The notes: a model not told the origin generated them from the letters alone. 64,000 nucleotides of DNA from Candidatus Blackburnbacteria bacterium (GCA_016183565.1 JACPEJ010000001.1:293241-357240); one strand, 5' to 3'. Counted from the first letter of the stretch, positions 2,819 to 16,231 are shown. A program made the numbers and translations.

Positions 2819-3514
2819 GTGTCCAAATTTTTTAAGAAATCCTTTTTGTTTTTACTGCTCCCTGTTGTTTTAGTTGTTGCATTGGGAGTGTTGGTATTAA
2901 GTGGTCGTAGTACTGCGACTGTGACCACAGGTTGTACTTCATCTGATTTTTCGGGTCTTTTTAAGCCGGATGATAAACTAGCTTACATTGGAAGTGAGAG
3001 TGCTAAAGTTCCTCCGGAGGAGAAAGTTGGAAGAGAGGGTACGGAGATAGCAAGAGTTCTATCTTCTACTTCATTTTTAGGAGAACGTTGGGTTGAGGTG
3101 GATTTGTCGGAGCAAAAACTTACAGCTTGGGAAGGTGATAAGATGTTTTTAACTACGTCGATTTCTTCTGGTTTGCCTTGGACGCCGACCCCACAGGGAG
3201 AGTTTAAGGTTTGGATTAAGGTACGTTACACAAAGATGGAGGGCGGCGAGGGTAGATATTACTATTACTTACCCAATGTTCCTTATGTTATGTTTTTTGA
3301 GAATGGGGCAACTCCGGGGTTTCGCGGGTATGGTTTACATGGTACATATTGGCACAATGATTTTGGTACACCAAGGAGTCATGGTTGTGTGAATTTGCCC
3401 ACGCCAATTGCTAAGGAGATTTTCTATTGGTTGGGGCCAGTTTTGCCAGATGGTAAGTCTATTGTGAAGGCAAGTACTGATAATCCTGGTGGACGGATTG
3501 TTATTCACGATTAA
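2819..3514 (+). CDS. L,D-transpeptidase (YkuD domain) with N-terminal membrane anchor
   Basis: Catalytic motif HGT...SHGCVNL. The start is more likely GTG 2819 (GGAAGGCGAGGGG RBS just upstream) than the TTG at 2762 used by the ORF track. Confidence 0.8.
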   Translation: MSKFFKKSFLFLLLPVVLVVALGVLVLSGRSTATVTTGCTSSDFSGLFKPDDKLAYIGSESAKVPPEEKVGREGTEIARVLSSTSFLGERWVEVDLSEQKLTAWEGDKMFLTTSISSGLPWTPTPQGEFKVWIKVRYTKMEGGEGRYYYYLPNVPYVMFFENGATPGFRGYGLHGTYWHNDFGTPRSHGCVNLPTPIAKEIFYWLGPVLPDGKSIVKASTDNPGGRIVIHD

Positions 3515-3537
3515 CCTCTAATGTCCCAATTGATCCC

Positions 3538-3566
3538 TTGACACATAGCACTCATTATGCTAGACT
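3538..3566 (+). promoter_or_regulatory. Sigma70-like promoter for lon (TTGACA-N17-TAGACT)
   Basis: Seen in sequence 16 nt upstream of the lon ATG. Confidence 0.4.
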
Positions 3567-3581
3567 GCTAATCGTTTACAT

Positions 3582-6026
3582 ATGGCAGAAGTATCTCAAG
3601 ACCCAAAGGAATTTGTACTTCCAATAGTTGCTCTGCGCGGTTCTGTTGTTTTTCCCCGGACTGAGGCTATTTTAACTTTTGGTAGGTCGAAGACGAAGCT
3701 TGCTGTGAATGCCTCTTTCTCAGGCGATAGACTTCTGGGTATATTTACACAAAAGGATGCAAGGATATCTGATCCTGTTGCTGGTGATCTGTACCCTGTT
3801 GGAACTCTAGTTTCTATAAGTCAATTGATGCCAACTGAGAATGAAATTCATGTGTTGGTGCAGGGGAAATCAAGAATAAGGATAAAGGGAGTGGTGTCTC
3901 ATGATCCGTTTGCTATTTATAGAATAGAGGTTCTTCAGGAAAATATCGAGAGTTTTGGTGAAGAAGAAACGCAAGCTAAGCATTTGGTTGGACTTTTTGA
4001 AAAGGCTATTCGTTTAGGAAAGGCTGCTGATGTGCAAACGGTTATGCGGCTTCTTTCTAATAAAATTGATCCGGCAGAGCTTGTTGATCAAATTGCATAT
4101 CTTCTTGATATAAAAACTCCCCAAAAGCAGGAACTTCTAGAAACTTTGTCTTTGGAAACAAGACTTAAGAAAGTGGCTGACAATCTTTCTCGGGAAGTTG
4201 GGATATTGGAACTTGAGCGGACAATTTCCAGTAAAACCCAAAAGAGATTTGAGGAGCAGATGCGCAAGGCCATGTTGAAGGAGCATCAGAAGACTATTGA
4301 ACAGGAACTGAAGGGGTTAGGTGAGGAGGGAGGGGATGATGAGGCAGAGGAGTTAAGAAAGAGGGTAAGGGAAGCGCAAATGCCTAAGGATGTGCGCAAG
4401 AAGGCAGAGAAAGAACTTAAACGGCTTATACAAATGTCGCCAAACCATCCCGAAAGTGGTTATGTGAGGAATTATTTGGATTGGCTTGTTGATATGCCTT
4501 GGAGCAAGAGGACTCCCAACAATATTTCTATAAGACACGCTGCGACGATTTTAGATCAAGATCACTATGCTTTAGAGAAAACCAAAGAGAGAATATTGGA
4601 GTTTTTGGCGGTTATGAAACTTAAGAGTAGTCGTCCTGTGAAGGAAGATGTTGGTGAGTTAGAAAAAGGTATGGAGGGCGGAACTCCGACTATACTTTGT
4701 TTTATTGGGCCTCCTGGAGTGGGAAAAACCTCGATTGGTCGTTCAATAGCTCGTGCTTTGGGAAGGAAGTTTGTAAGAGTGTCTCTTGGGGGCGTGAGAG
4801 ATGAAGCGGAAATTAGAGGTCATAGGAGGACATATGTTGGGGCACTTCCTGGAAGGATTATACAGGGTATTAAAAATGTTGGGACTAAAAATCCTGTGTT
4901 TATGCTTGATGAGATTGATAAGTTAGGCAATGACTTTAGAGGAGATCCTTCTTCGGCACTTTTAGAGGTTTTAGATCCCGAGCAAAACAAAGAGTTTTCA
5001 GATCATTACCTTGAGGTGCCATTTGATCTTTCTGAGGTAATGTTTATATGTACTGGTAATGTTTTGGATACTATTCCTCCTGCTCTTCGTGATAGGATGG
5101 AGATAATTAGGTTTGCTGGTTACACTGAAGATGAGAAATATAATATTGCAAGGAGCTTTCTTTGGCCGAAGCAACTAAAGAATAATGGTTTGACTTCTAA
5201 TATTCAAATGACACCTTCGGCGTTTCGGGAGATAATAAATCGGTACACCCGGGAAGCTGGTGTAAGAAGTTTGGAAAGAAATCTTGCTACTGTGGCAAGA
5301 AAAATCGCAAGGGAAGTAGCGGAGGGTAAAAAGGCTCTAAAGATAATTCAAAAAGAAAATATCCGAAGGCTTTTGGGGCCAGCTCAGTTCTCTTCTCTTT
5401 TGGCTGAGAAAAAGGATGAGGTTGGAATTGCGACTGGACTTGGGGTGACTCCTGTTGGAGGGGAGATAATGTTTATTGAAACAGCCCTGATGCCTGGGAA
5501 GGGAAGTCTTACCTTGACGGGTCAGCTTGGTGACGTTATGCGCGAGTCTGCGATGGCGACCTTTTCTTATGCCAGGAGTCATTGGAAAGAGCTGGGGATA
5601 GATAATGAATTTGCAAAACGGACTGATGTGCATGTGCACGTTCCGGAGGGTGCGGTTCCGAAAGATGGTCCATCGGCAGGTGTTGCAATGGCAACTTCTC
5701 TAATTTCGGCTCTAACGGATGTTAAAACCAGAAAGGATATTGCGATGACAGGAGAGATTACGCTTAGAGGTAGGGTGATGGAAATAGGTGGAGTTAAGGA
5801 TAAGGTAATTGCTGCACACAGAGCTGGAATAAAGGTGGTTATTTTACCCAAAGATAACAGAAAAGATATGGAAGATGTGCCGGAGAAGGTAAAGAAAGAT
5901 ATAAAATTTGTTTTTGTAAATCACTTGGATCAGGTGCTTGATGTAGCGCTCCCTGGGTTTGCACAGCGGCAAATTCAACGGAAGATATCTACTCCGTCTC
6001 ATACCCCAACTTTTCTTGCAGGGTAG
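3582..6026 (+). CDS. lon: ATP-dependent protease Lon (La)
   Basis: 814 aa. Lon N-domain, AAA+ Walker A GPPGVGKTS, protease domain with PKDGPSAGVAMATSL catalytic Ser and downstream Lys. Confidence 0.95.
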   Translation: MAEVSQDPKEFVLPIVALRGSVVFPRTEAILTFGRSKTKLAVNASFSGDRLLGIFTQKDARISDPVAGDLYPVGTLVSISQLMPTENEIHVLVQGKSRIRIKGVVSHDPFAIYRIEVLQENIESFGEEETQAKHLVGLFEKAIRLGKAADVQTVMRLLSNKIDPAELVDQIAYLLDIKTPQKQELLETLSLETRLKKVADNLSREVGILELERTISSKTQKRFEEQMRKAMLKEHQKTIEQELKGLGEEGGDDEAEELRKRVREAQMPKDVRKKAEKELKRLIQMSPNHPESGYVRNYLDWLVDMPWSKRTPNNISIRHAATILDQDHYALEKTKERILEFLAVMKLKSSRPVKEDVGELEKGMEGGTPTILCFIGPPGVGKTSIGRSIARALGRKFVRVSLGGVRDEAEIRGHRRTYVGALPGRIIQGIKNVGTKNPVFMLDEIDKLGNDFRGDPSSALLEVLDPEQNKEFSDHYLEVPFDLSEVMFICTGNVLDTIPPALRDRMEIIRFAGYTEDEKYNIARSFLWPKQLKNNGLTSNIQMTPSAFREIINRYTREAGVRSLERNLATVARKIAREVAEGKKALKIIQKENIRRLLGPAQFSSLLAEKKDEVGIATGLGVTPVGGEIMFIETALMPGKGSLTLTGQLGDVMRESAMATFSYARSHWKELGIDNEFAKRTDVHVHVPEGAVPKDGPSAGVAMATSLISALTDVKTRKDIAMTGEITLRGRVMEIGGVKDKVIAAHRAGIKVVILPKDNRKDMEDVPEKVKKDIKFVFVNHLDQVLDVALPGFAQRQIQRKISTPSHTPTFLAG

Positions 6027-6061: not shown

Positions 6062-6607
6062 TTGGGTTTGGAAAGATGGGTTAATCTAGTGGTGATGGGG
6101 AAAATTCAAGGGTGGTTTAAGGGAATGGGTGAGCATGGGAATTTGAGATTCATTGTTGGGGTTTCTTTGCTTTCTGTTTTTCTCAAGGTAGTAATACTGT
6201 CTGTTAGTGATACACTTTTTAGTTTGTTGGGTTTTGGGGAGCTTGTTGAGATTTCTTCGGATTTGCAAATACCGGACTTGACCATTTTTGACTTCTTTAT
6301 TTCTGTTTTGGCTGTGCCTCCTATAGAAACAATATTTGGTCAATGGCTTCCGATTGCTTTTGCTTCTATGTTTTCGAAGACTACGAGAGTGCTGGTGATT
6401 TTTTCAGCATCAGTTTTTGCACTTTTGCATTATCCGGCGATAGCGTTTTTCCCCGGTGCTTTTGTTGTTGGTTTGTTTTTAGCTTGGAGTTGGGTATTAA
6501 GACGTAAGAATGGTCGCTGGGAGGCGTTTTGGGTAACTACTTCTATACACATGACGCACAACCTGCTTGCTTTCCTTGCTCTTTTCCTTTTGGCTTCTTT
6601 GGAGTAA
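6062..6607 (+). CDS. CPBP-family (CAAX/Abi-like) intramembrane metalloprotease
   Basis: Polytopic. Motifs FALLHY (FxxxH) and HMTHNLLAF (HxxxN). The true start is probably an internal Met. Confidence 0.55.
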   Translation: MGLERWVNLVVMGKIQGWFKGMGEHGNLRFIVGVSLLSVFLKVVILSVSDTLFSLLGFGELVEISSDLQIPDLTIFDFFISVLAVPPIETIFGQWLPIAFASMFSKTTRVLVIFSASVFALLHYPAIAFFPGAFVVGLFLAWSWVLRRKNGRWEAFWVTTSIHMTHNLLAFLALFLLASLE

Positions 6608-9300: not shown

Positions 9301-9864
9301 ATGATTAGAGAAGAAGCTTTAAAAATTCTTCATGACAATATGCAGTTTGTTAATCTGCGTCGACATTGTTATGCAGTTGAAGCGGTTATGCGGGCATTAG
9401 CAGGGCGCTTGGGTGGAGATATGGCGAAGTGGGGAGTTGTTGGATTGTTACACGATGGAGATTACGAAAAAACCAAAGACACAGCAGGAGAACATACACT
9501 TTTGATGCATGAGTGGCTTAAAAATGCTGGTGAGACTGATGAGGAGATATTAAATGCAATTCTCTCTCATAATTATTCAGTTACAGGTAAAAGAGCGCCT
9601 GGTTCAAGAATGGAATGGGCGTTGTACTGTTGTGATGAGTTAACTGGATTTATTGTTGCTGTAGCTCTGGTCCGGCCAGACAGGAAATTGGCGTCTGTTA
9701 CTGTTGAGTCTATAATGAAAAAGTGGGATCAACTTGCGTTTGCAGCAGCAGTTGATAGAAAGCAAATAGAGATGTGTGAAGAAAAATTGGGCATACCTTT
9801 GCAGGAGTTTGTAGGGATTGCTTTAGGAGCTATGCAGGGCATAGCTAATGATTTGGGATTGTAG
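9301..9864 (+). CDS. HD-domain (HDIG-type) phosphohydrolase
   Basis: RHCYAVE (His) and LLHDGDYE (HD) motifs. Starts right after the lysS stop. Confidence 0.65.
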   Translation: MIREEALKILHDNMQFVNLRRHCYAVEAVMRALAGRLGGDMAKWGVVGLLHDGDYEKTKDTAGEHTLLMHEWLKNAGETDEEILNAILSHNYSVTGKRAPGSRMEWALYCCDELTGFIVAVALVRPDRKLASVTVESIMKKWDQLAFAAAVDRKQIEMCEEKLGIPLQEFVGIALGAMQGIANDLGL

Positions 9865-13091: not shown

Positions 13092-13259
13092 AAAGATCGC
13101 ACTTTAAGGTATTTTGTTCCACCAATCATTTTAGGATCATTAAAGGTCAAAAAGGAACAAATATTATCAGACTAGTACTTTGATTGCTATTTCAATGGCC
13201 TATTACTTACGGACTGATTTGTCGCCCCGTTTGAGCTACTTTTGCCTCGGTGTTTTTTG

Positions 13260-13289
13260 TTGACATGAATTTCGAATAACTCGTTAAAT
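13260..13289 (+). promoter_or_regulatory. Sigma70-like promoter (TTGACA-N18-TTAAAT) upstream of the 26-aa basic peptide gene
   Basis: Seen in sequence. Confidence 0.35.
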
Positions 13290-13313
13290 GAATATGGAAA
13301 GGAGGATTGTTTA

Positions 13314-13394
13314 ATGCCTGCACGAAAGAAGCGCGCAACACGAAAGCGCACAACAACAAAAAAGAGAGCAACAACACGACGAAAGAGAAGATAA
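13314..13394 (+). CDS. 26-aa ultra-basic peptide (MPARKKRATRKRTTTKKRATTRRKRR); bS22-like ribosome-associated or protamine-like small protein candidate
   Basis: Not in the ORF track (under 60 aa). GGAGG RBS 8 nt upstream of the ATG. Own promoter upstream; strong intrinsic terminator follows at 13451..13482. Confidence 0.5.
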   Translation: MPARKKRATRKRTTTKKRATTRRKRR

Positions 13395-13450
13395 AGAGAT
13401 TTAGTCTTTTTCTTTCGTACACTCAAAAATATTTTTAGAGTGTTGTTTTT

Positions 13451-13482
13451 AGTGCCCGCAGAAAAGCGGGCACTAAGTTTTT
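13451..13482 (+). terminator. Rho-independent terminator (AGTGCCCGC-AGAAAA-GCGGGCACT followed by AAGTTTTT)
   Basis: 9-bp GC-rich stem plus T-tract, seen directly. The T-tract is on the plus strand only. Confidence 0.6.
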
Positions 13483-13504
13483 AAAAACAAGGTATAATTG
13501 GAGG

Positions 13505-16231
13505 ATGTTAAACATATTTTTTAGTGCATTTGACGCGAACAAAAGAGAAGTAGATCGGCTTACAGTAGTTCTTGAAAAAATAAACAGTTTTTCAAGCAAG
13601 GCTGAGGAGCTCAAAGGAGAGGATTTTTTGGAAAAAACTCAGGAGTTTAGGAGAAGGATTCAGAAAGGGGAAGTCTTAGAGGAGATTTTACCGGAGGTGT
13701 TTGCGGTGGGGCGTGAGGCGTCGTGGAAGGCTATTGGTCTTAGGCATTATGATACTCAGCTTATTGCAGGTGTTGCACTATCGCAAGGGAAGATAGCTGA
13801 GCAAAGAACCGGGGAGGGTAAGACGTTGTCGGCAATACTTCCTTTGTATTTACATGCGTTGACGGGTAAGAATGTGCATCTTGTTACTGTAAATGATTAC
13901 CTTGCAAGATTGGGAGCCGGGTGGAACGGCCCTGTGTTTAGTTTGCTTGGGATTTCTGTGGGGATAATAGTCCAAGAGGGAAAATCCTTTTTATATGATC
14001 CTGGTTACACGGACGACTCACACGGAGATGAACGTTTAGCACATCTCCGTCCTGTAGAAAGGCAAGAAGCGTACAAAGCAGACATTGTTTATGGAACTAA
14101 TAATGAATTTGGTTTTGATTATCTTCGTGACAATATGGTTTCGGATCTTTCGCAAATGGCTCAACGGGGTCATTACTATGCGATTGTTGATGAAGTTGAC
14201 TCGGTTTTGATTGATGAGGCTCGTACTCCTTTGATAATTTCTGCGCCAGACACTGAGCCTACTGATAAGTATTATAAATTTGCAGAGATTATAAATAGGT
14301 TGTCTTCTGATACAGATTACGTGATTGACGAGAAACTAAAAACTGCGAATTTAACAGAGCATGGAGTTACAAAGGTAGAAAAGATTCTTGGGGTAGATAA
14401 TCTTTATGAAAAAGATTTTGATGTTATCCACCATATTGAGAATGCATTGCGAGCAAGAACCTTATTTCTTATAGATAGGGACTATGTAGTTAAGGATGAT
14501 CAAGTTACTATAGTTGATGAATTTACAGGTAGGTTGATGTTTGGTCGACGCTGGAGTGATGGATTGCACCAGGCTGTTGAGGCAAAGGAAGGTGTTTCTA
14601 TACAACAGGAGAGTAAGACTCTTGCAACCATATCGTTTCAAAATTACTTTAGGATGTACGAGAAATTAGCAGGAATGACTGGTACTGCAGCAACTGAGGC
14701 AGAAGAATTTCACAAGATATATGGGTTAGATGTTGTAGTAGTTCCCACTTACAAACCGGTGGTTAGAAGAGATTATCCTGATGTTATATATAAGACTACT
14801 GGGGCTAAATATTCTGCGATCGTTGATGAAATAATTGAAGTTATAAAACTTGGTAGACCTGTCTTGGTGGGTACCACCTCTATTGAGAAAAATGAGATAG
14901 TTTCTAGTTTCTTAAAGAAAAAAGGTATTCGCCACAACGTACTTAATGCTAAGAATCACGAGAGAGAGGCCTTGATTATTGCGGAGGCGGGAGAGCCGGG
15001 TGCTGTAACAGTTGCTACAAATATGGCAGGTCGCGGGGTGGATATTATACTTGGTGGTGCAAAGCCGGATGTTCCTCCTGGAGTAGATCGAGAAAGGTAT
15101 AAAGAGAGTAAGGAGTATAAACAGTGGGAGAGTGATCATGAAAGTGTTGTTAGTAGAGGAGGCTTGCATGTTATTGGAACAGAGAGACATGAATCAAGAA
15201 GAATAGACAATCAACTTCGGGGAAGATCAGGTCGACTTGGTGATACTGGTTCTAGTAAGTTTTTCTTAGCACTTGATGATGATTTAATGCGAATATTTGG
15301 TGGAGAAAAAATTGCATCTCTTATGACTACCCTTCAGATACCGGAAGATCAACCTATAGAAAACGGTTTAATAACTCGAGCGATTCAACAAGCGCAAGTT
15401 AAAGTTGAGACTTTTCATTTTGATGCTAGAAAAAGGGTTGTAGAATATGACGACGTTGCTAACCAACAGCGTGAGATTATCTATAAACTTAGGAAGCAAG
15501 TATTAGAGGAGGAAAACTTTAAGGATAAAGTTGAAGGTAAACTGGAGGAACAAGTAAAAGGAGTAGTTAACCTTGTTTATTCAAACAAAGAGGATAAAAT
15601 AGGTAACGAACAACTTCTTTTGATGTTTTTGGAAATAGTTCCTTTTGATGATCAGTCTCATAAGTCATTGCTTCAGCAACTTGACCAGATTACGAGTGAA
15701 CAAAAAGCAGAGAAGTTCTTACTTCAATTAATTAAACAAGCGTATGAGTCGCGAGAGAAACAATTGGGATCTAACTGGATGCGACAAGTTGAAAGGTTTG
15801 CATATCTTTCAGCGATTGATTCGTTGTGGATTGAGCACTTGACTAATCTTGATGATTTAAGAGAAGGGGTGGGGTTGCGTGGATATGGCCAGAAAGATCC
15901 TCTTGTAGAGTTTAAAAATGAAGCGTTCGAATTGTTTGATAAGTTGATGGTGGATATTGATGCTGGCTTGGCTCGTAGGTTGTTTAGGATTGTTCCCGCA
16001 AATACTGCTTCTCCTACGATAGGTATTGATGAAGCGCAAACAAATATGGATACTGCGGATGACACGGGTTTGATGGAGACTCCTATCACGAAGACACTTT
16101 CGAAGAATAGTAATAATCAACAATCGAAAAAATTGGGTAGGAATGATCCTTGTTGGTGTGGGAGAAAAGATGCGAGTGGAAAGCCTATCAAGTGGAAGAA
16201 GTGTCATTATCCACAACTATCTTCTGGGTAA
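13505..16231 (+). CDS. secA: Preprotein translocase ATPase SecA
   Basis: 908 aa; DEAD-like motor domains and C-terminal zinc-binding CWCGRKDASGKPIKWKKCH. Confidence 0.97.
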   Translation: MLNIFFSAFDANKREVDRLTVVLEKINSFSSKAEELKGEDFLEKTQEFRRRIQKGEVLEEILPEVFAVGREASWKAIGLRHYDTQLIAGVALSQGKIAEQRTGEGKTLSAILPLYLHALTGKNVHLVTVNDYLARLGAGWNGPVFSLLGISVGIIVQEGKSFLYDPGYTDDSHGDERLAHLRPVERQEAYKADIVYGTNNEFGFDYLRDNMVSDLSQMAQRGHYYAIVDEVDSVLIDEARTPLIISAPDTEPTDKYYKFAEIINRLSSDTDYVIDEKLKTANLTEHGVTKVEKILGVDNLYEKDFDVIHHIENALRARTLFLIDRDYVVKDDQVTIVDEFTGRLMFGRRWSDGLHQAVEAKEGVSIQQESKTLATISFQNYFRMYEKLAGMTGTAATEAEEFHKIYGLDVVVVPTYKPVVRRDYPDVIYKTTGAKYSAIVDEIIEVIKLGRPVLVGTTSIEKNEIVSSFLKKKGIRHNVLNAKNHEREALIIAEAGEPGAVTVATNMAGRGVDIILGGAKPDVPPGVDRERYKESKEYKQWESDHESVVSRGGLHVIGTERHESRRIDNQLRGRSGRLGDTGSSKFFLALDDDLMRIFGGEKIASLMTTLQIPEDQPIENGLITRAIQQAQVKVETFHFDARKRVVEYDDVANQQREIIYKLRKQVLEEENFKDKVEGKLEEQVKGVVNLVYSNKEDKIGNEQLLLMFLEIVPFDDQSHKSLLQQLDQITSEQKAEKFLLQLIKQAYESREKQLGSNWMRQVERFAYLSAIDSLWIEHLTNLDDLREGVGLRGYGQKDPLVEFKNEAFELFDKLMVDIDAGLARRLFRIVPANTASPTIGIDEAQTNMDTADDTGLMETPITKTLSKNSNNQQSKKLGRNDPCWCGRKDASGKPIKWKKCHYPQLSSG

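What the first reader, a model, noticed from the sequence alone, without database searches (positions are those of the whole stretch)
13260..13482. Strongly signalled 26-aa ultra-basic peptide gene (bS22-like or protamine-like) missing from the ORF track
ATG 13314..TAA 13394 encodes MPARKKRATRKRTTTKKRATTRRKRR (17 of 26 residues Arg/Lys, 7 Thr). It is preceded by a GGAGG RBS at optimal 8-nt spacing and a TTGACA-N18-TTAAAT promoter, and followed by a 9-bp GC stem plus T-tract terminator. Size and composition resemble ribosomal protein bS22 (the 33-aa actinobacterial/Bacteroidetes protein) or nucleic-acid-binding protamine-like peptides. Such a gene is easily missed by annotation pipelines.
Basis: partly seen in the sequence, partly recalled or inferred. 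Interest (0 to 1): 0.55.

Follow-up and report, generated by a model that had tools for sequence, protein, structure and literature searches.

The report
Hidden tiny polycationic peptide gene
A 26-codon gene with its own promoter, ribosome-binding site and terminator sits just upstream of secA in an uncultured Candidate Phyla Radiation (CPR) bacterium; it encodes a peptide made almost only of Lys, Arg, Thr and Ala, recurs in related genomes, and probably coats nucleic acids by charge, but it does not pass the tests for ribosomal protein bS22.

Summary
ORF 13314..13394(+) encodes MPARKKRATRKRTTTKKRATTRRKRR. It has AAGGAGG 8 nt upstream, TTGACA-N18-TTAAAT, and a 12-bp terminator. Two counts need correcting: 15 of 26 residues are K/R, not 17, and there are 6 Thr, not 7.

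The window comes from a Candidatus Blackburnbacteria genome (Microgenomates, CPR). The same promoter–SD–micro-ORF–terminator unit lies in the same spacer, between a methyltransferase gene and secA, in two other Microgenomates lineages:
- L081: MARKRKAARRTTKKRTTRRRR
- L113: MAKKKARKTAKKKTAKRKKRK

Eight or more related lineages lack it there. Similar stand-alone ORFs occur in two other CPR loci.

Only the ATG frame is free of acidic residues. K↔R swaps occur through multi-nucleotide codon changes, and the terminator stem shows a compensatory change. I conclude it is a real, translated, unannotated micro-gene.

Composition and length are conserved, but residue positions are not. Pfam, NCBIfam, PDB and two very large protein collections give no usable match. 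Resemblance to the structurally verified 'MP-type' bS22 is weak (p≈0.004–0.03), confined mainly to the window copy (marginal in L081, p≈0.04), and lacks bS22's invariant residues.

Best reading: a fast-evolving, protamine/H1-tail-like nucleic-acid-binding polycation. bS22-like ribosomal binding remains a live rival. Interest is moderate.

The parts
13260..13265 (+). -35 hexamer TTGACA of the micro-gene promoter
   Evidence: Read. Invariant in the orthologous units of L081 and L113 (alignment A4).
13284..13289 (+). -10-like hexamer TTAAAT, 18 nt after the -35
   Evidence: It matches the consensus at 4 of 6 positions and was not listed by the scan. Orthologues have TTTAAT (L081) and TTTACT (L113) at the same 18-nt spacing.
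13299..13305 (+). Shine-Dalgarno AAGGAGG, 8 nt before the ATG
   Evidence: L081 has AAGGAG 7 nt before its ATG. L113 has AGGTGGTGA 5 nt before its ATG.
13314..13394 (+). Micro-ORF of 26 codons plus TAA: MPARKKRATRKRTTTKKRATTRRKRR
   Evidence: Frame-specific composition: 15 K/R and 0 D/E in frame 0, against 3-6 D/E in the other two frames. Orthologues in L081 and L113.
13320..13391 (+). 72-nt T-free run that fills the ORF interior exactly
   Evidence: the only T-free run of 35 nt or more in 64 kb. All 6 Thr codons are ACA, against 29% ACA genome-wide. The run is not conserved in L113, so it is not a family feature.
13379..13418 (+). 17-bp hairpin pairing the last ORF codons and the stop codon with the 3'UTR
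   Evidence: L081 has an analogous pairing of the ORF end with downstream sequence.
13419..13443 (+). Second 3'UTR hairpin
13448..13477 (+). Intrinsic terminator: 12-bp stem, 7 G-C pairs, followed by a T5 tail
   Evidence: The stem base AGUGCCCG/CGGGCACU is conserved, with a compensatory C-G to U-A change in L113 and a U.G pair in L081.
13146..13228 (+). Conserved non-coding blocks A (promoter-like TTATCA-N-TGCTA) and B upstream of the unit. These are context, not part of the micro-gene.
   Evidence: Alignments A2 and A4. The blocks are present in all relatives, with or without the ORF.
13493..13507 (+). secA's own TATAAT (13493-13498), 6 nt before the secA ATG at 13505. This shows secA does not depend on the micro-gene transcript.
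   Evidence: A -10-like hexamer lies 4-16 nt before the secA ATG in L081-L087.

Best explanation
The region is a real micro-gene. It is transcribed on its own from TTGACA-18-TTAAAT and ends at a strong intrinsic terminator. It is translated from a strong SD and ATG into a 26-residue peptide built only of Lys, Arg, Thr and Ala, plus Met and Pro at the N-terminus.

It belongs to a fast-evolving family in which composition is conserved but sequence is not. The family occupies the spacer between a Spermine_synth-like methyltransferase gene and secA in some Microgenomates (CPR). Look-alike genes occur elsewhere in CPR.

Selection keeps the charge, the lack of acidic or hydrophobic residues, and the length (21-26 aa). 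It does not keep residue positions. The peptide therefore most likely acts as a sequence-nonspecific polycation that binds and neutralises polyanionic nucleic acid. Models for this are protamines, histone-H1 tails and the small basic DNA-binding peptides ScvA and Hq1 of Coxiella.

Shown here: the anatomy, the conservation, the reading frame and the restriction to CPR. Inferred only: translation in vivo, nucleic-acid binding, and whether the target is DNA or RNA.
For: **Anatomy.**

**Orthologous units at the same syntenic slot.** They occur in L081 (SecA 74% identical, neighbouring MTase 57%) and L113 (SecA 67%). Conserved features are the -35, the 18-nt spacer, the -10-like hexamer, the SD, the ATG, the stop codon and the terminator stem.

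**Coding signature, window versus L081.**
- 21 aligned codons: 11 identical, 5 synonymous, 4 K↔R (two through 3-nt codon changes, CGC↔AAA and AAG↔CGA), and 1 T→A (read and the sequences).
- All length differences keep the frame.

**Frame-specific composition.**
- In all five ORFs only the ATG frame has zero D/E. The other frames have 2-10.
- Dinucleotide shuffles reach the observed K/R content with no D/E at p = 6e-4 for L081. L081 was found by synteny, not by composition.

**Terminator covariation.** CCCG/CGGG in the window becomes CUCG/CGAG in L113.

**Enrichment in CPR.** A uniform screen gave 5 hits in 338 kb of CPR DNA, 0 in 644 kb of non-CPR secA loci, and 0 in 158 kb of viral contigs.

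**Positional turnover.** L081 versus L113 is about 24% identical ungapped although both are 21 aa. Verified bS22 is 87% identical between Flavobacterium and Porphyromonas.

**Precedent.** Small basic DNA-binding peptides are known in bacteria (PMC4766238).
Against: - There are no expression, proteomic or binding data.
- Only three syntenic copies are known. At least eight related lineages lack the ORF at this slot (L082, L083, L084/85, L086, L087, L114, L115, L116). The gene is therefore dispensable there, or has moved. I could not scan whole genomes.
- L066, L005 and L113 were found by a composition screen, so their composition statistics are circular.
- A purine-rich, A-rich RNA would also tend to encode K and R.
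- The window copy does show a weak, above-composition resemblance to MP-type bS22.
- The DNA-versus-RNA target is pure inference.
Confidence: 0.45

Rival explanations
1. It is a lineage-specific tiny ribosomal protein that fills the 16S h44/h45-23S H68/H70 pocket. That would make it a CPR counterpart of bS22 (Bacteroidota/Borrelia type), functionally like eL41 and mS38.
For: - Size and basicity match: Borrelia bS22 is 61% K/R, about 30 aa, and was likewise unannotated. Its authors predict it will be found in other bacteria (PMC10618245).
- The window peptide aligns without gaps to Fjo, Pgi and Bbu bS22. It shares M1, P2, K6, R7, K11, T14, K16 and R25.
- The profile score exceeds composition-matched shuffles at p = 0.004 with Met fixed and 0.03 with Met-Pro fixed. 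L081 gives p = 0.04.
- The NCBIfam bS22 model does not recognise the verified Fjo and Bbu proteins either, so the absence of an HMM hit is uninformative.
- In L066 the look-alike ORF sits directly upstream of a 119-aa ORF (3486..3845) whose N-terminus I recognise from memory as HPF-like; that ORF was not scanned against any family library.
Against: - It lacks the residues invariant in verified MP-type bS22: G4, hydrophobic 12, H15, N24 and H26.
- The orthologues start with MA, are 21 aa long, and differ in residue positions. L066 and L005 show no similarity beyond composition.
- It is absent from the slot in most relatives, which is unusual for a ribosomal protein.
- It has no hydrophobic anchor residue.
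- There is no similarity beyond composition to actinobacterial bS22, eL41, bL37 or THX.
Confidence: 0.2
2. The unit is a small regulatory RNA. The conserved feature would be the transcript: an unstructured A/C/G-rich 5' part followed by three 3' hairpins. The ORF would be incidental, or the RNA would have a dual function.
For: - The 72-nt U-free run and exclusive ACA usage in the window suggest a nucleotide-level constraint.
- The 3' region is highly structured, z = -4.7 to -5.3.
- A compact promoter-to-terminator unit of about 200 nt is typical of sRNAs.
Against: - An SD and ATG at proper spacing are conserved in three lineages.
- The U-free property is not conserved in L113.
- The nucleotide sequence of the ORF diverges while K/R/T/A composition in one frame is kept.
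- K↔R swaps occur through triple-nucleotide changes.
- No Rfam family matches, even at E ≤ 10.
Confidence: 0.08
3. It is a cis-regulatory leader ORF for secA. This could be an attenuator-type leader peptide, or a SecM/MifM-like monitor whose translation controls read-through or translation of secA.
For: - The small ORF plus terminator lies immediately upstream of secA, downstream of a conserved promoter-like block.
- Regulatory ORFs upstream of protein-export genes are a known theme (PMC12992588 abstract).
- The ORF end is sequestered in a hairpin.
Against: - secA has its own TATAAT 6 nt before its ATG, and relatives without the ORF keep a -10-like hexamer close to the secA ATG.
- The terminator forms both in the full transcript and in the 3'UTR alone, and no alternative antiterminator pairing was found.
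- The peptide has no signal or transmembrane segment and no arrest motif.
- In L066 another gene separates the ORF from secA. In L005 the ORF lies on the opposite strand, 2.4 kb away.
Confidence: 0.06
4. It is a chance ORF in a low-complexity purine-rich spacer, with no function.
For: - A T-free sequence cannot contain stop codons.
- Low-complexity A-rich DNA arises easily by slippage.
Against: - The promoter, SD, ATG, stop codon and terminator are conserved across lineages whose neighbouring protein is only 57% identical.
- The terminator shows a compensatory change.
- The composition is frame-specific.
- Such ORFs are enriched in CPR.
Confidence: 0.02

Closest known systems
bS22, Bacteroidota/Spirochaetota 'MP' type (PDB 7JIL chain 5 Flavobacterium johnsoniae, 9I5V Porphyromonas gingivalis, 8FMW chain V Borrelia burgdorferi)
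   Same: - A very small (28-31 aa), roughly 60% K/R peptide encoded by an unannotated or 'hypothetical' gene.
- The window copy shares the MP start and eight ungapped identities, including T14 and K16.
   Different: - It lacks the invariant G4, hydrophobic residue 12, H15 and the N-R-H motif.
- It is shorter (26 aa, or 21 aa in the orthologues).
- Residue positions are not conserved among its own orthologues.
- Its distribution is patchy.
- No structural evidence exists.
bS22 of Actinobacteria / mS38 (AURKAIP1/COX24, Pfam PF08213; NCBIfam NF047430) and eukaryotic eL41
   Same: Tiny helical polybasic peptides that are buried in rRNA at the subunit interface.
   Different: - No HMM hit.
- No similarity beyond composition: z = -0.5 against Msm bS22 and -1.1 against eL41.
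Protamines and sperm nuclear basic proteins; histone H1 C-terminal tails; bacterial small basic DNA-binding proteins (Coxiella ScvA and Hq1, Chlamydia Hc1 and Hc2)
   Same: - Made almost entirely of K/R with A/T/S/P spacers, and without acidic or hydrophobic residues.
- Rapid sequence and length turnover while charge is preserved.
- Expected to be disordered until bound to a polyanion.
   Different: - No sequence homology.
- At 21-26 aa it is shorter than the bacterial examples, as far as I recall their sizes; these were not checked here.
- DNA binding and nucleoid compaction have not been tested.
- No developmental context is known.
SecM / MifM / VemP-type regulatory nascent peptides and amino-acid-operon leader peptides
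   Same: A short ORF located just upstream of a protein-export gene and followed by RNA hairpins.
   Different: - It has no signal or transmembrane segment and no arrest motif.
- It has no antiterminator alternative structure.
- A strong terminator and an independent secA promoter separate it from secA.

Membership tests
bS22 (Actinobacteria type; NCBIfam NF047430 ribo_bS22 / Pfam PF08213 COX24_C) | Match to the family HMM above its cut-off | tested here: not met
   No family matches the window peptide or the L081, L066 and L005 peptides at E ≤ 10. The M. smegmatis bS22 control scores 62.6 bits against a cut-off of 34.
bS22 (Bacteroidota/Borrelia 'MP' type) | Conserved motif MPxG[KR]K[RK]K..K[VMI][AS]THK[RK]KK....NRHKK, length 28-31 aa | tested here: not met
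   The window peptide keeps M1, P2, K6, R7, K11, T14, K16 and R25. It lacks G4, hydrophobic residue 12, H15, N24 and H26, and is 26 aa long. Orthologues are 21 aa and start with MA.
bS22 (Bacteroidota/Borrelia 'MP' type) | Sequence similarity beyond what composition gives | tested here: inconclusive
   Ungapped profile score against composition-matched shuffles: window p = 0.004 with Met fixed and 0.03 with Met-Pro fixed; L081 p = 0.04; L066, L005 and L112 p > 0.27.
bS22 (any type) | Strong positional conservation within and between orders | tested here: not met
   Fjo versus Pgi bS22 are 26/30 identical. Window versus L081 are 14/21 identical with indels. L081 versus L113 are about 5/21 identical ungapped (sequences).
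bS22 (any type) | Occupies the 16S h2/h27/h44/h45 pocket of the 30S subunit | not testable with these tools
   This needs ribosome purification or cryo-EM from a Microgenomates organism.
Protamine / H1-tail-like polycationic nucleic-acid binders (an analogy class, not a homology family) | At least 50% K/R, remaining residues small or polar, no acidic or aromatic residues | tested here: met
   All five peptides have 52-67% K/R, zero D/E and zero F/W/Y/C.
Protamine / H1-tail-like polycationic nucleic-acid binders | Composition conserved while sequence and length turn over quickly | tested here: met
   Compare the sequences of the window, L081 and L113. The neighbouring SecA is 67-74% identical and the MTase 57%.
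Protamine / H1-tail-like polycationic nucleic-acid binders | Binds and condenses DNA or RNA | not testable with these tools
   This needs EMSA or condensation assays with the synthetic peptide.
Attenuator leader peptide | Mutually exclusive antiterminator and terminator structures coupled to translation of the ORF, and a downstream operon that depends on read-through | tested here: not met
   The terminator forms both in the full transcript and in the 3'UTR alone. secA has its own TATAAT 6 nt before its ATG, and relatives lacking the ORF also keep a -10-like hexamer close to the secA ATG.
SecM/MifM/VemP-type arrest peptides | N-terminal signal or transmembrane segment plus a C-terminal arrest motif, with the ORF overlapping or sequestering the downstream SD | tested here: not met
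   The peptide has no hydrophobic residue apart from Met1. A terminator and a promoter separate it from secA.
Known RNA families (Rfam 15) | Match to a covariance model | tested here: not met
   No hit in the region at the gathering threshold. At E ≤ 10 the only matches are far below their gathering scores.

The most novel reading that the evidence does not exclude
CPR/Patescibacteria carry a hidden class of stand-alone micro-genes that annotation pipelines never see. The ORFs are 21-37 aa and made only of K, R, A and T. The peptides would act as genetically encoded protamine- or polyamine-like counter-ions that compact the nucleoid or neutralise RNA in these ultra-small cells. That would make them a new kind of bacterial nucleic-acid-packaging factor, not a ribosomal protein.
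Probability: 0.25. Interest if true: 0.7.

Novelty: new variant of a known kind. Interest (0 to 1): 0.45.

Why it matters
CPR bacteria make up a large share of bacterial diversity, and their cell biology is mostly unknown. This gene is invisible to standard annotation because it is shorter than the length I understand common gene callers to require. It is absent from collections of 5.8 and 1.8 billion proteins.

If the peptide is ribosomal, it would extend the bS22/eL41 niche to CPR and change the inventory of their 'reduced' ribosomes. If it is a protamine-like counter-ion, it would bear on how ultra-small cells pack DNA and RNA.

In either case it shows that screens based on composition and expression signals can recover conserved micro-genes that homology searches cannot find.

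Tried and rejected
- **Genome-contig scan with SecA.** The patterns hit universal SecA motifs, and the best relative was only 53% identical.
- **Direct peptide searches.** The search for homologous proteins needs at least 40 aa and the search for related loci rejects the 26-aa query.
- **Padded peptide searches.**
  - A padded 40-aa query found no candidate.
  - A padded L066 query scored nothing at E ≤ 1.
  - A 30-aa padded phmmer search against 1.84 billion representatives gave one spurious low-complexity hit in a 409-aa protein.
- **DNA-pattern scans.**
  - A loose pattern on viral contigs returned 20 hits. All were ordinary protein N-termini read in another frame ('..EEKI').
  - A stricter pattern on metagenome contigs returned 3 hits and no orthologue. 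One was an SD-less MARKRRVRRKRRVRRRRRR on a short contig that I judged, from its ORFs alone, possibly mobile-element-like.
- **Source record.** Look-up of the window's own record failed.
- **Negative searches.** Rfam, PDB, and Pfam/NCBIfam.
- **Basic ORFs after secA in Saccharibacteria loci.** They are in frame with secA, as checked in L071, and were not returned by the uniform screen. I treat them as the SecA C-terminal tail and rejected them.
- **Antisense and alternative-frame ORFs.** Rejected. They have TTG or GTG starts inside the promoter or SD and no ribosome-binding site. They are open only because the region lacks T on the + strand and A on the - strand.

Full report
**Observation**

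- ATG 13314 to TAA 13394 on the + strand encodes MPARKKRATRKRTTTKKRATTRRKRR.
- AAGGAGG (13299-13305) lies 8 nt before the ATG.
- TTGACA (13260-13265) is followed after 18 nt by TTAAAT (13284-13289).
- A 12-bp hairpin with 7 G-C pairs (13448-13477) is followed by TTTTT.

The peptide has 9 Arg + 6 Lys = 15 of 26 basic residues, not 17, and 6 Thr, not 7.

The -10 element matches TATAAT at 4 of 6 positions and lacks the A at position 2. For that reason the consensus scan did not list the promoter.

The feature is far from chance.
- It is the only small ORF in the 64-kb window with K+R above 55%.
- Its interior coincides exactly with a 72-nt T-free run (13320-13391), the only T-free run of 35 nt or more in the window.

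A T-free run cannot contain a stop codon in any + frame. The open frame alone therefore proves nothing, and the case for a gene has to rest on other evidence.

**Source and neighbourhood**

The downstream 908-aa ORF is SecA. The upstream 209-aa ORF is a Spermine_synth-like methyltransferase (MTase). Further upstream lie MgsA, SerRS, an HD-domain protein and a class II aaRS (tRNA-synt_2: D/K/N family).

The SecA is 100% identical to a protein of a Candidatus Blackburnbacteria MAG (Microgenomates, CPR) on a 686-kb contig. The nearest other SecA proteins are only 74% identical.

The MTase-to-secA order is conserved in most of the Microgenomates loci I fetched; L116 lacks the MTase gene, and L114 and L115 carry an extra gene between MTase and secA.

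**Orthologous units**

The spacer between MTase and secA holds the same kind of unit in two further lineages.

| Locus | SecA identity to window | Coordinates | Peptide |
|---|---|---|---|
| L081 | 74% (neighbouring MTase 57%) | 3204-3269 | MARKRKAARRTTKKRTTRRRR |
| L113 (Microgenomates Gr01-1014_5) | 67% | 9628-9693 | MAKKKARKTAKKKTAKRKKRK |

All three units share the following:
- a TTGACA -35 hexamer;
- an 18-nt spacer;
- a TT(T/A)A(A/C)T -10-like hexamer;
- an SD at 5-8 nt from an ATG;
- a stop codon;
- a terminal hairpin whose base is AGUGCNCG...CGNGCACU, followed by a U-rich tract.

The hairpin carries a compensatory change: CCCG/CGGG in the window, CUCG/CGAG in L113, and a U.G pair in L081.

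The slot lacks a basic ORF in L082, L083, L086, L087-89, L114, L115 and L116. L084 and L085 carry an unrelated insert behind a TTGACA at the same place. The gene has therefore been lost or relocated repeatedly, or it is accessory.

**Is it translated?**

In the window-versus-L081 comparison the 21 alignable codons divide as follows:
- 11 identical;
- 5 synonymous (GCA/GCT twice, AAG/AAA twice, CGA/CGC);
- 4 Lys↔Arg exchanges, two of them through changes at all three codon positions (CGC↔AAA and AAG↔CGA);
- 1 Thr→Ala.

There is no radical replacement, and the length differences preserve the frame (sequences; alignments).

In each of the five ORFs of this class, only the ATG frame is free of Asp and Glu. 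The other two frames contain 2-10 acidic residues. Dinucleotide-preserving shuffles reach the observed K/R content without acidic residues or stops at p ≈ 6e-4 for the window and for L081. L081 was found by synteny, not by composition, so its test is independent.

L113 has diverged almost completely at the nucleotide level and contains T at third positions. It still encodes only K, R, A and T in the same frame.

The exclusive use of ACA for Thr in the window (6 of 6, against 29% genome-wide) and the U-free run are not shared by L113. They are local peculiarities, not family features.

I conclude with about 80% confidence that the ORF is translated.

**Breadth**

- L066 (Patescibacteria): MAKKKVKRAKKVVKKAVKKAVKNVKKTKKAKKTRKRR. 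A 119-aa ORF lies between it and secA; its N-terminus looks HPF-like to me (from memory), but I did not run it against Pfam.
- L005 (Sungiibacteriota): MAAKRKKAAAKKTKKTTKRRS, 2.4 kb from secA on the opposite strand.

With one fixed definition (first-ATG ORF of 18-40 aa, K+R ≥ 50%, no D/E/F/W/Y/C) the screen gave:
- 5 hits in 338 kb of CPR DNA;
- 0 hits in 644 kb of non-CPR secA neighbourhoods;
- 0 hits in 158 kb of viral contigs.

All CPR sequence examined was centred on secA, so I cannot say whether the link to secA is real.

**Comparison with known families**

Database searches gave nothing usable.
- No Pfam or NCBIfam model matches.
- No PDB chain matches.
- No Rfam family matches.
- No protein in the 5.8-billion-sequence collection shares even three 5-residue words with the peptide.
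- An exhaustive phmmer search of 1.84 billion representatives gave one spurious hit.

The controls matter. NCBIfam's bS22 model recognises the mycobacterial protein, but not the structurally verified bS22 of Flavobacterium or Borrelia. The lack of an HMM hit therefore does not exclude bS22.

I retrieved the three verified 'MP-type' bS22 sequences from the PDB (see also PMC10618245 and PMC12123416):
- Fjo: MPSGKKRKRHKVATHKRKKRARANRHKKKK
- Pgi: MPNGKKRKRHKMATHKRKKRLKKNRHKKKK
- Bbu: MPCGRKRKLKKISTHKRKKKRRKNRHKK

The window peptide aligns to them without gaps and shares M1, P2, K6, R7, K11, T14, K16 and R25. Results of the shuffle tests:

| Peptide | p versus composition-matched shuffles |
|---|---|
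| Window, Met fixed | 0.004 |
| Window, Met-Pro fixed | 0.03 |
| L081 | 0.04 |
| L066, L005, L112 | > 0.27 |

There is no signal against mycobacterial bS22, eL41, bL37, THX, bL34 or bL36.

Several points count against bS22 membership.
- The peptide lacks every non-basic residue that is invariant in verified bS22: G4, hydrophobic residue 12, H15, N24 and H26.
- The orthologues start with MA and are 21 aa long.
- Residue positions turn over among orthologues. L081 versus L113 is about 24% identical ungapped, although both are 21 aa. Fjo and Pgi bS22, from different orders, are 87% identical.

A peptide that must fit an rRNA pocket should not behave in this way.

**Mechanism**

What is conserved is charge density, the absence of acidic, aromatic and aliphatic residues, small polar spacers (Thr/Ala), short length and strong expression signals. 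Peptides that work through non-specific electrostatic binding to polyanions evolve in this manner.
- From general knowledge, examples are protamines and H1 tails.

My best-supported explanation, at about 0.45, is that the unit makes an abundant polycationic peptide that coats and neutralises nucleic acid. Whether the target is the nucleoid or RNA and ribosomes is not resolved.

The specific bS22-like ribosomal role remains the main rival, at about 0.2.

A cis-regulatory role for secA is unlikely, at about 0.06.
- secA carries its own TATAAT 6 nt before its ATG, and relatives without the ORF also keep a -10-like hexamer close to the secA ATG.
- The terminator forms with or without the ORF region.
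- The peptide has none of the features of SecM/MifM-type monitors.

A purely RNA function (about 0.08) is disfavoured by the frame-specific constraint. A chance ORF (about 0.02) is disfavoured by the conservation.

**Novelty and verdict**

The library I could search contains no paper that links bS22 or any such peptide with Patescibacteria.

The finding is a real and probably functional micro-gene, and a member of a small CPR-restricted class that annotation misses. It resembles known tiny polycationic nucleic-acid binders in kind. It is not demonstrably a member of any known family, so I rate it a new variant of a known kind.

Interest is moderate (0.45). It is a concrete, testable candidate either for a missing CPR ribosomal component or for a bacterial protamine-like factor. 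The function is unproven and the distribution seen so far is patchy.

Noticed in passing
window 13146-13228 (block A 13146-13193, block B 13210-13228); also L081-L087, L113, L116: Two conserved non-coding blocks lie just downstream of the methyltransferase gene in every Microgenomates secA locus examined, whether or not the micro-ORF is present. Block A reads like a promoter (TTGTCA/TTATCA, about 16-18 nt, then TGCTA as an extended -10) pointing toward secA. Block B is a palindrome in relatives (CGATATATCG), which could be an operator or an RNA hairpin.
   Followed up: partly
window 13493-13507; L081 about 3385-3413; L083 about 1968-1985: secA has a TATAAT-like hexamer only 4-16 nt before its ATG in all relatives. 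That implies a leaderless or near-leaderless secA mRNA. The GGAGG at 13500-13504 abuts the ATG and cannot serve as a Shine-Dalgarno sequence.
   Followed up: partly
L084 2700-2990 and L085 2730-2990: The slot that holds the micro-gene in the window carries a different insert of about 250 nt in these relatives. It sits behind a TTGACA at the same position, has two clear hairpins and has no basic ORF. It may be a small RNA, and the spacer appears to be a variable insertion site.
   Followed up: no
L066 3274-3387 and 3486-3845: In this Patescibacteria contig a 37-aa K/A/V-rich ultra-basic ORF with its own terminator lies directly upstream of a 119-aa ORF whose N-terminus looks like HPF, the ribosome hibernation factor. 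That ORF is followed by secA. The HPF identification is from memory and was not checked against Pfam.
   Followed up: partly
L113 9800-10000: The leader of about 170 nt between a TATAAT and the secA ATG in this relative is full of short repeated CTGA(A/T)A-like motifs. Their meaning is unknown.
   Followed up: no
L026, L070, L071, L073 about 6480-6590: Saccharibacteria SecA proteins seem to end in a roughly 30-aa highly basic tail (for example ...ARKKKKSQRQNRKKSRR). The stretch is in frame with secA (arithmetic checked in L071), and it showed up as pseudo-'small ORFs' in the first composition screen.
   Followed up: partly
L112 166-225 (-): A short metagenome contig that I judged possibly mobile-element-like from its ORFs alone carries MARKRRVRRKRRVRRRRRR without an SD, divergent from a 290-aa ORF. 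It was found only because the search pattern demanded these features.
   Followed up: partly
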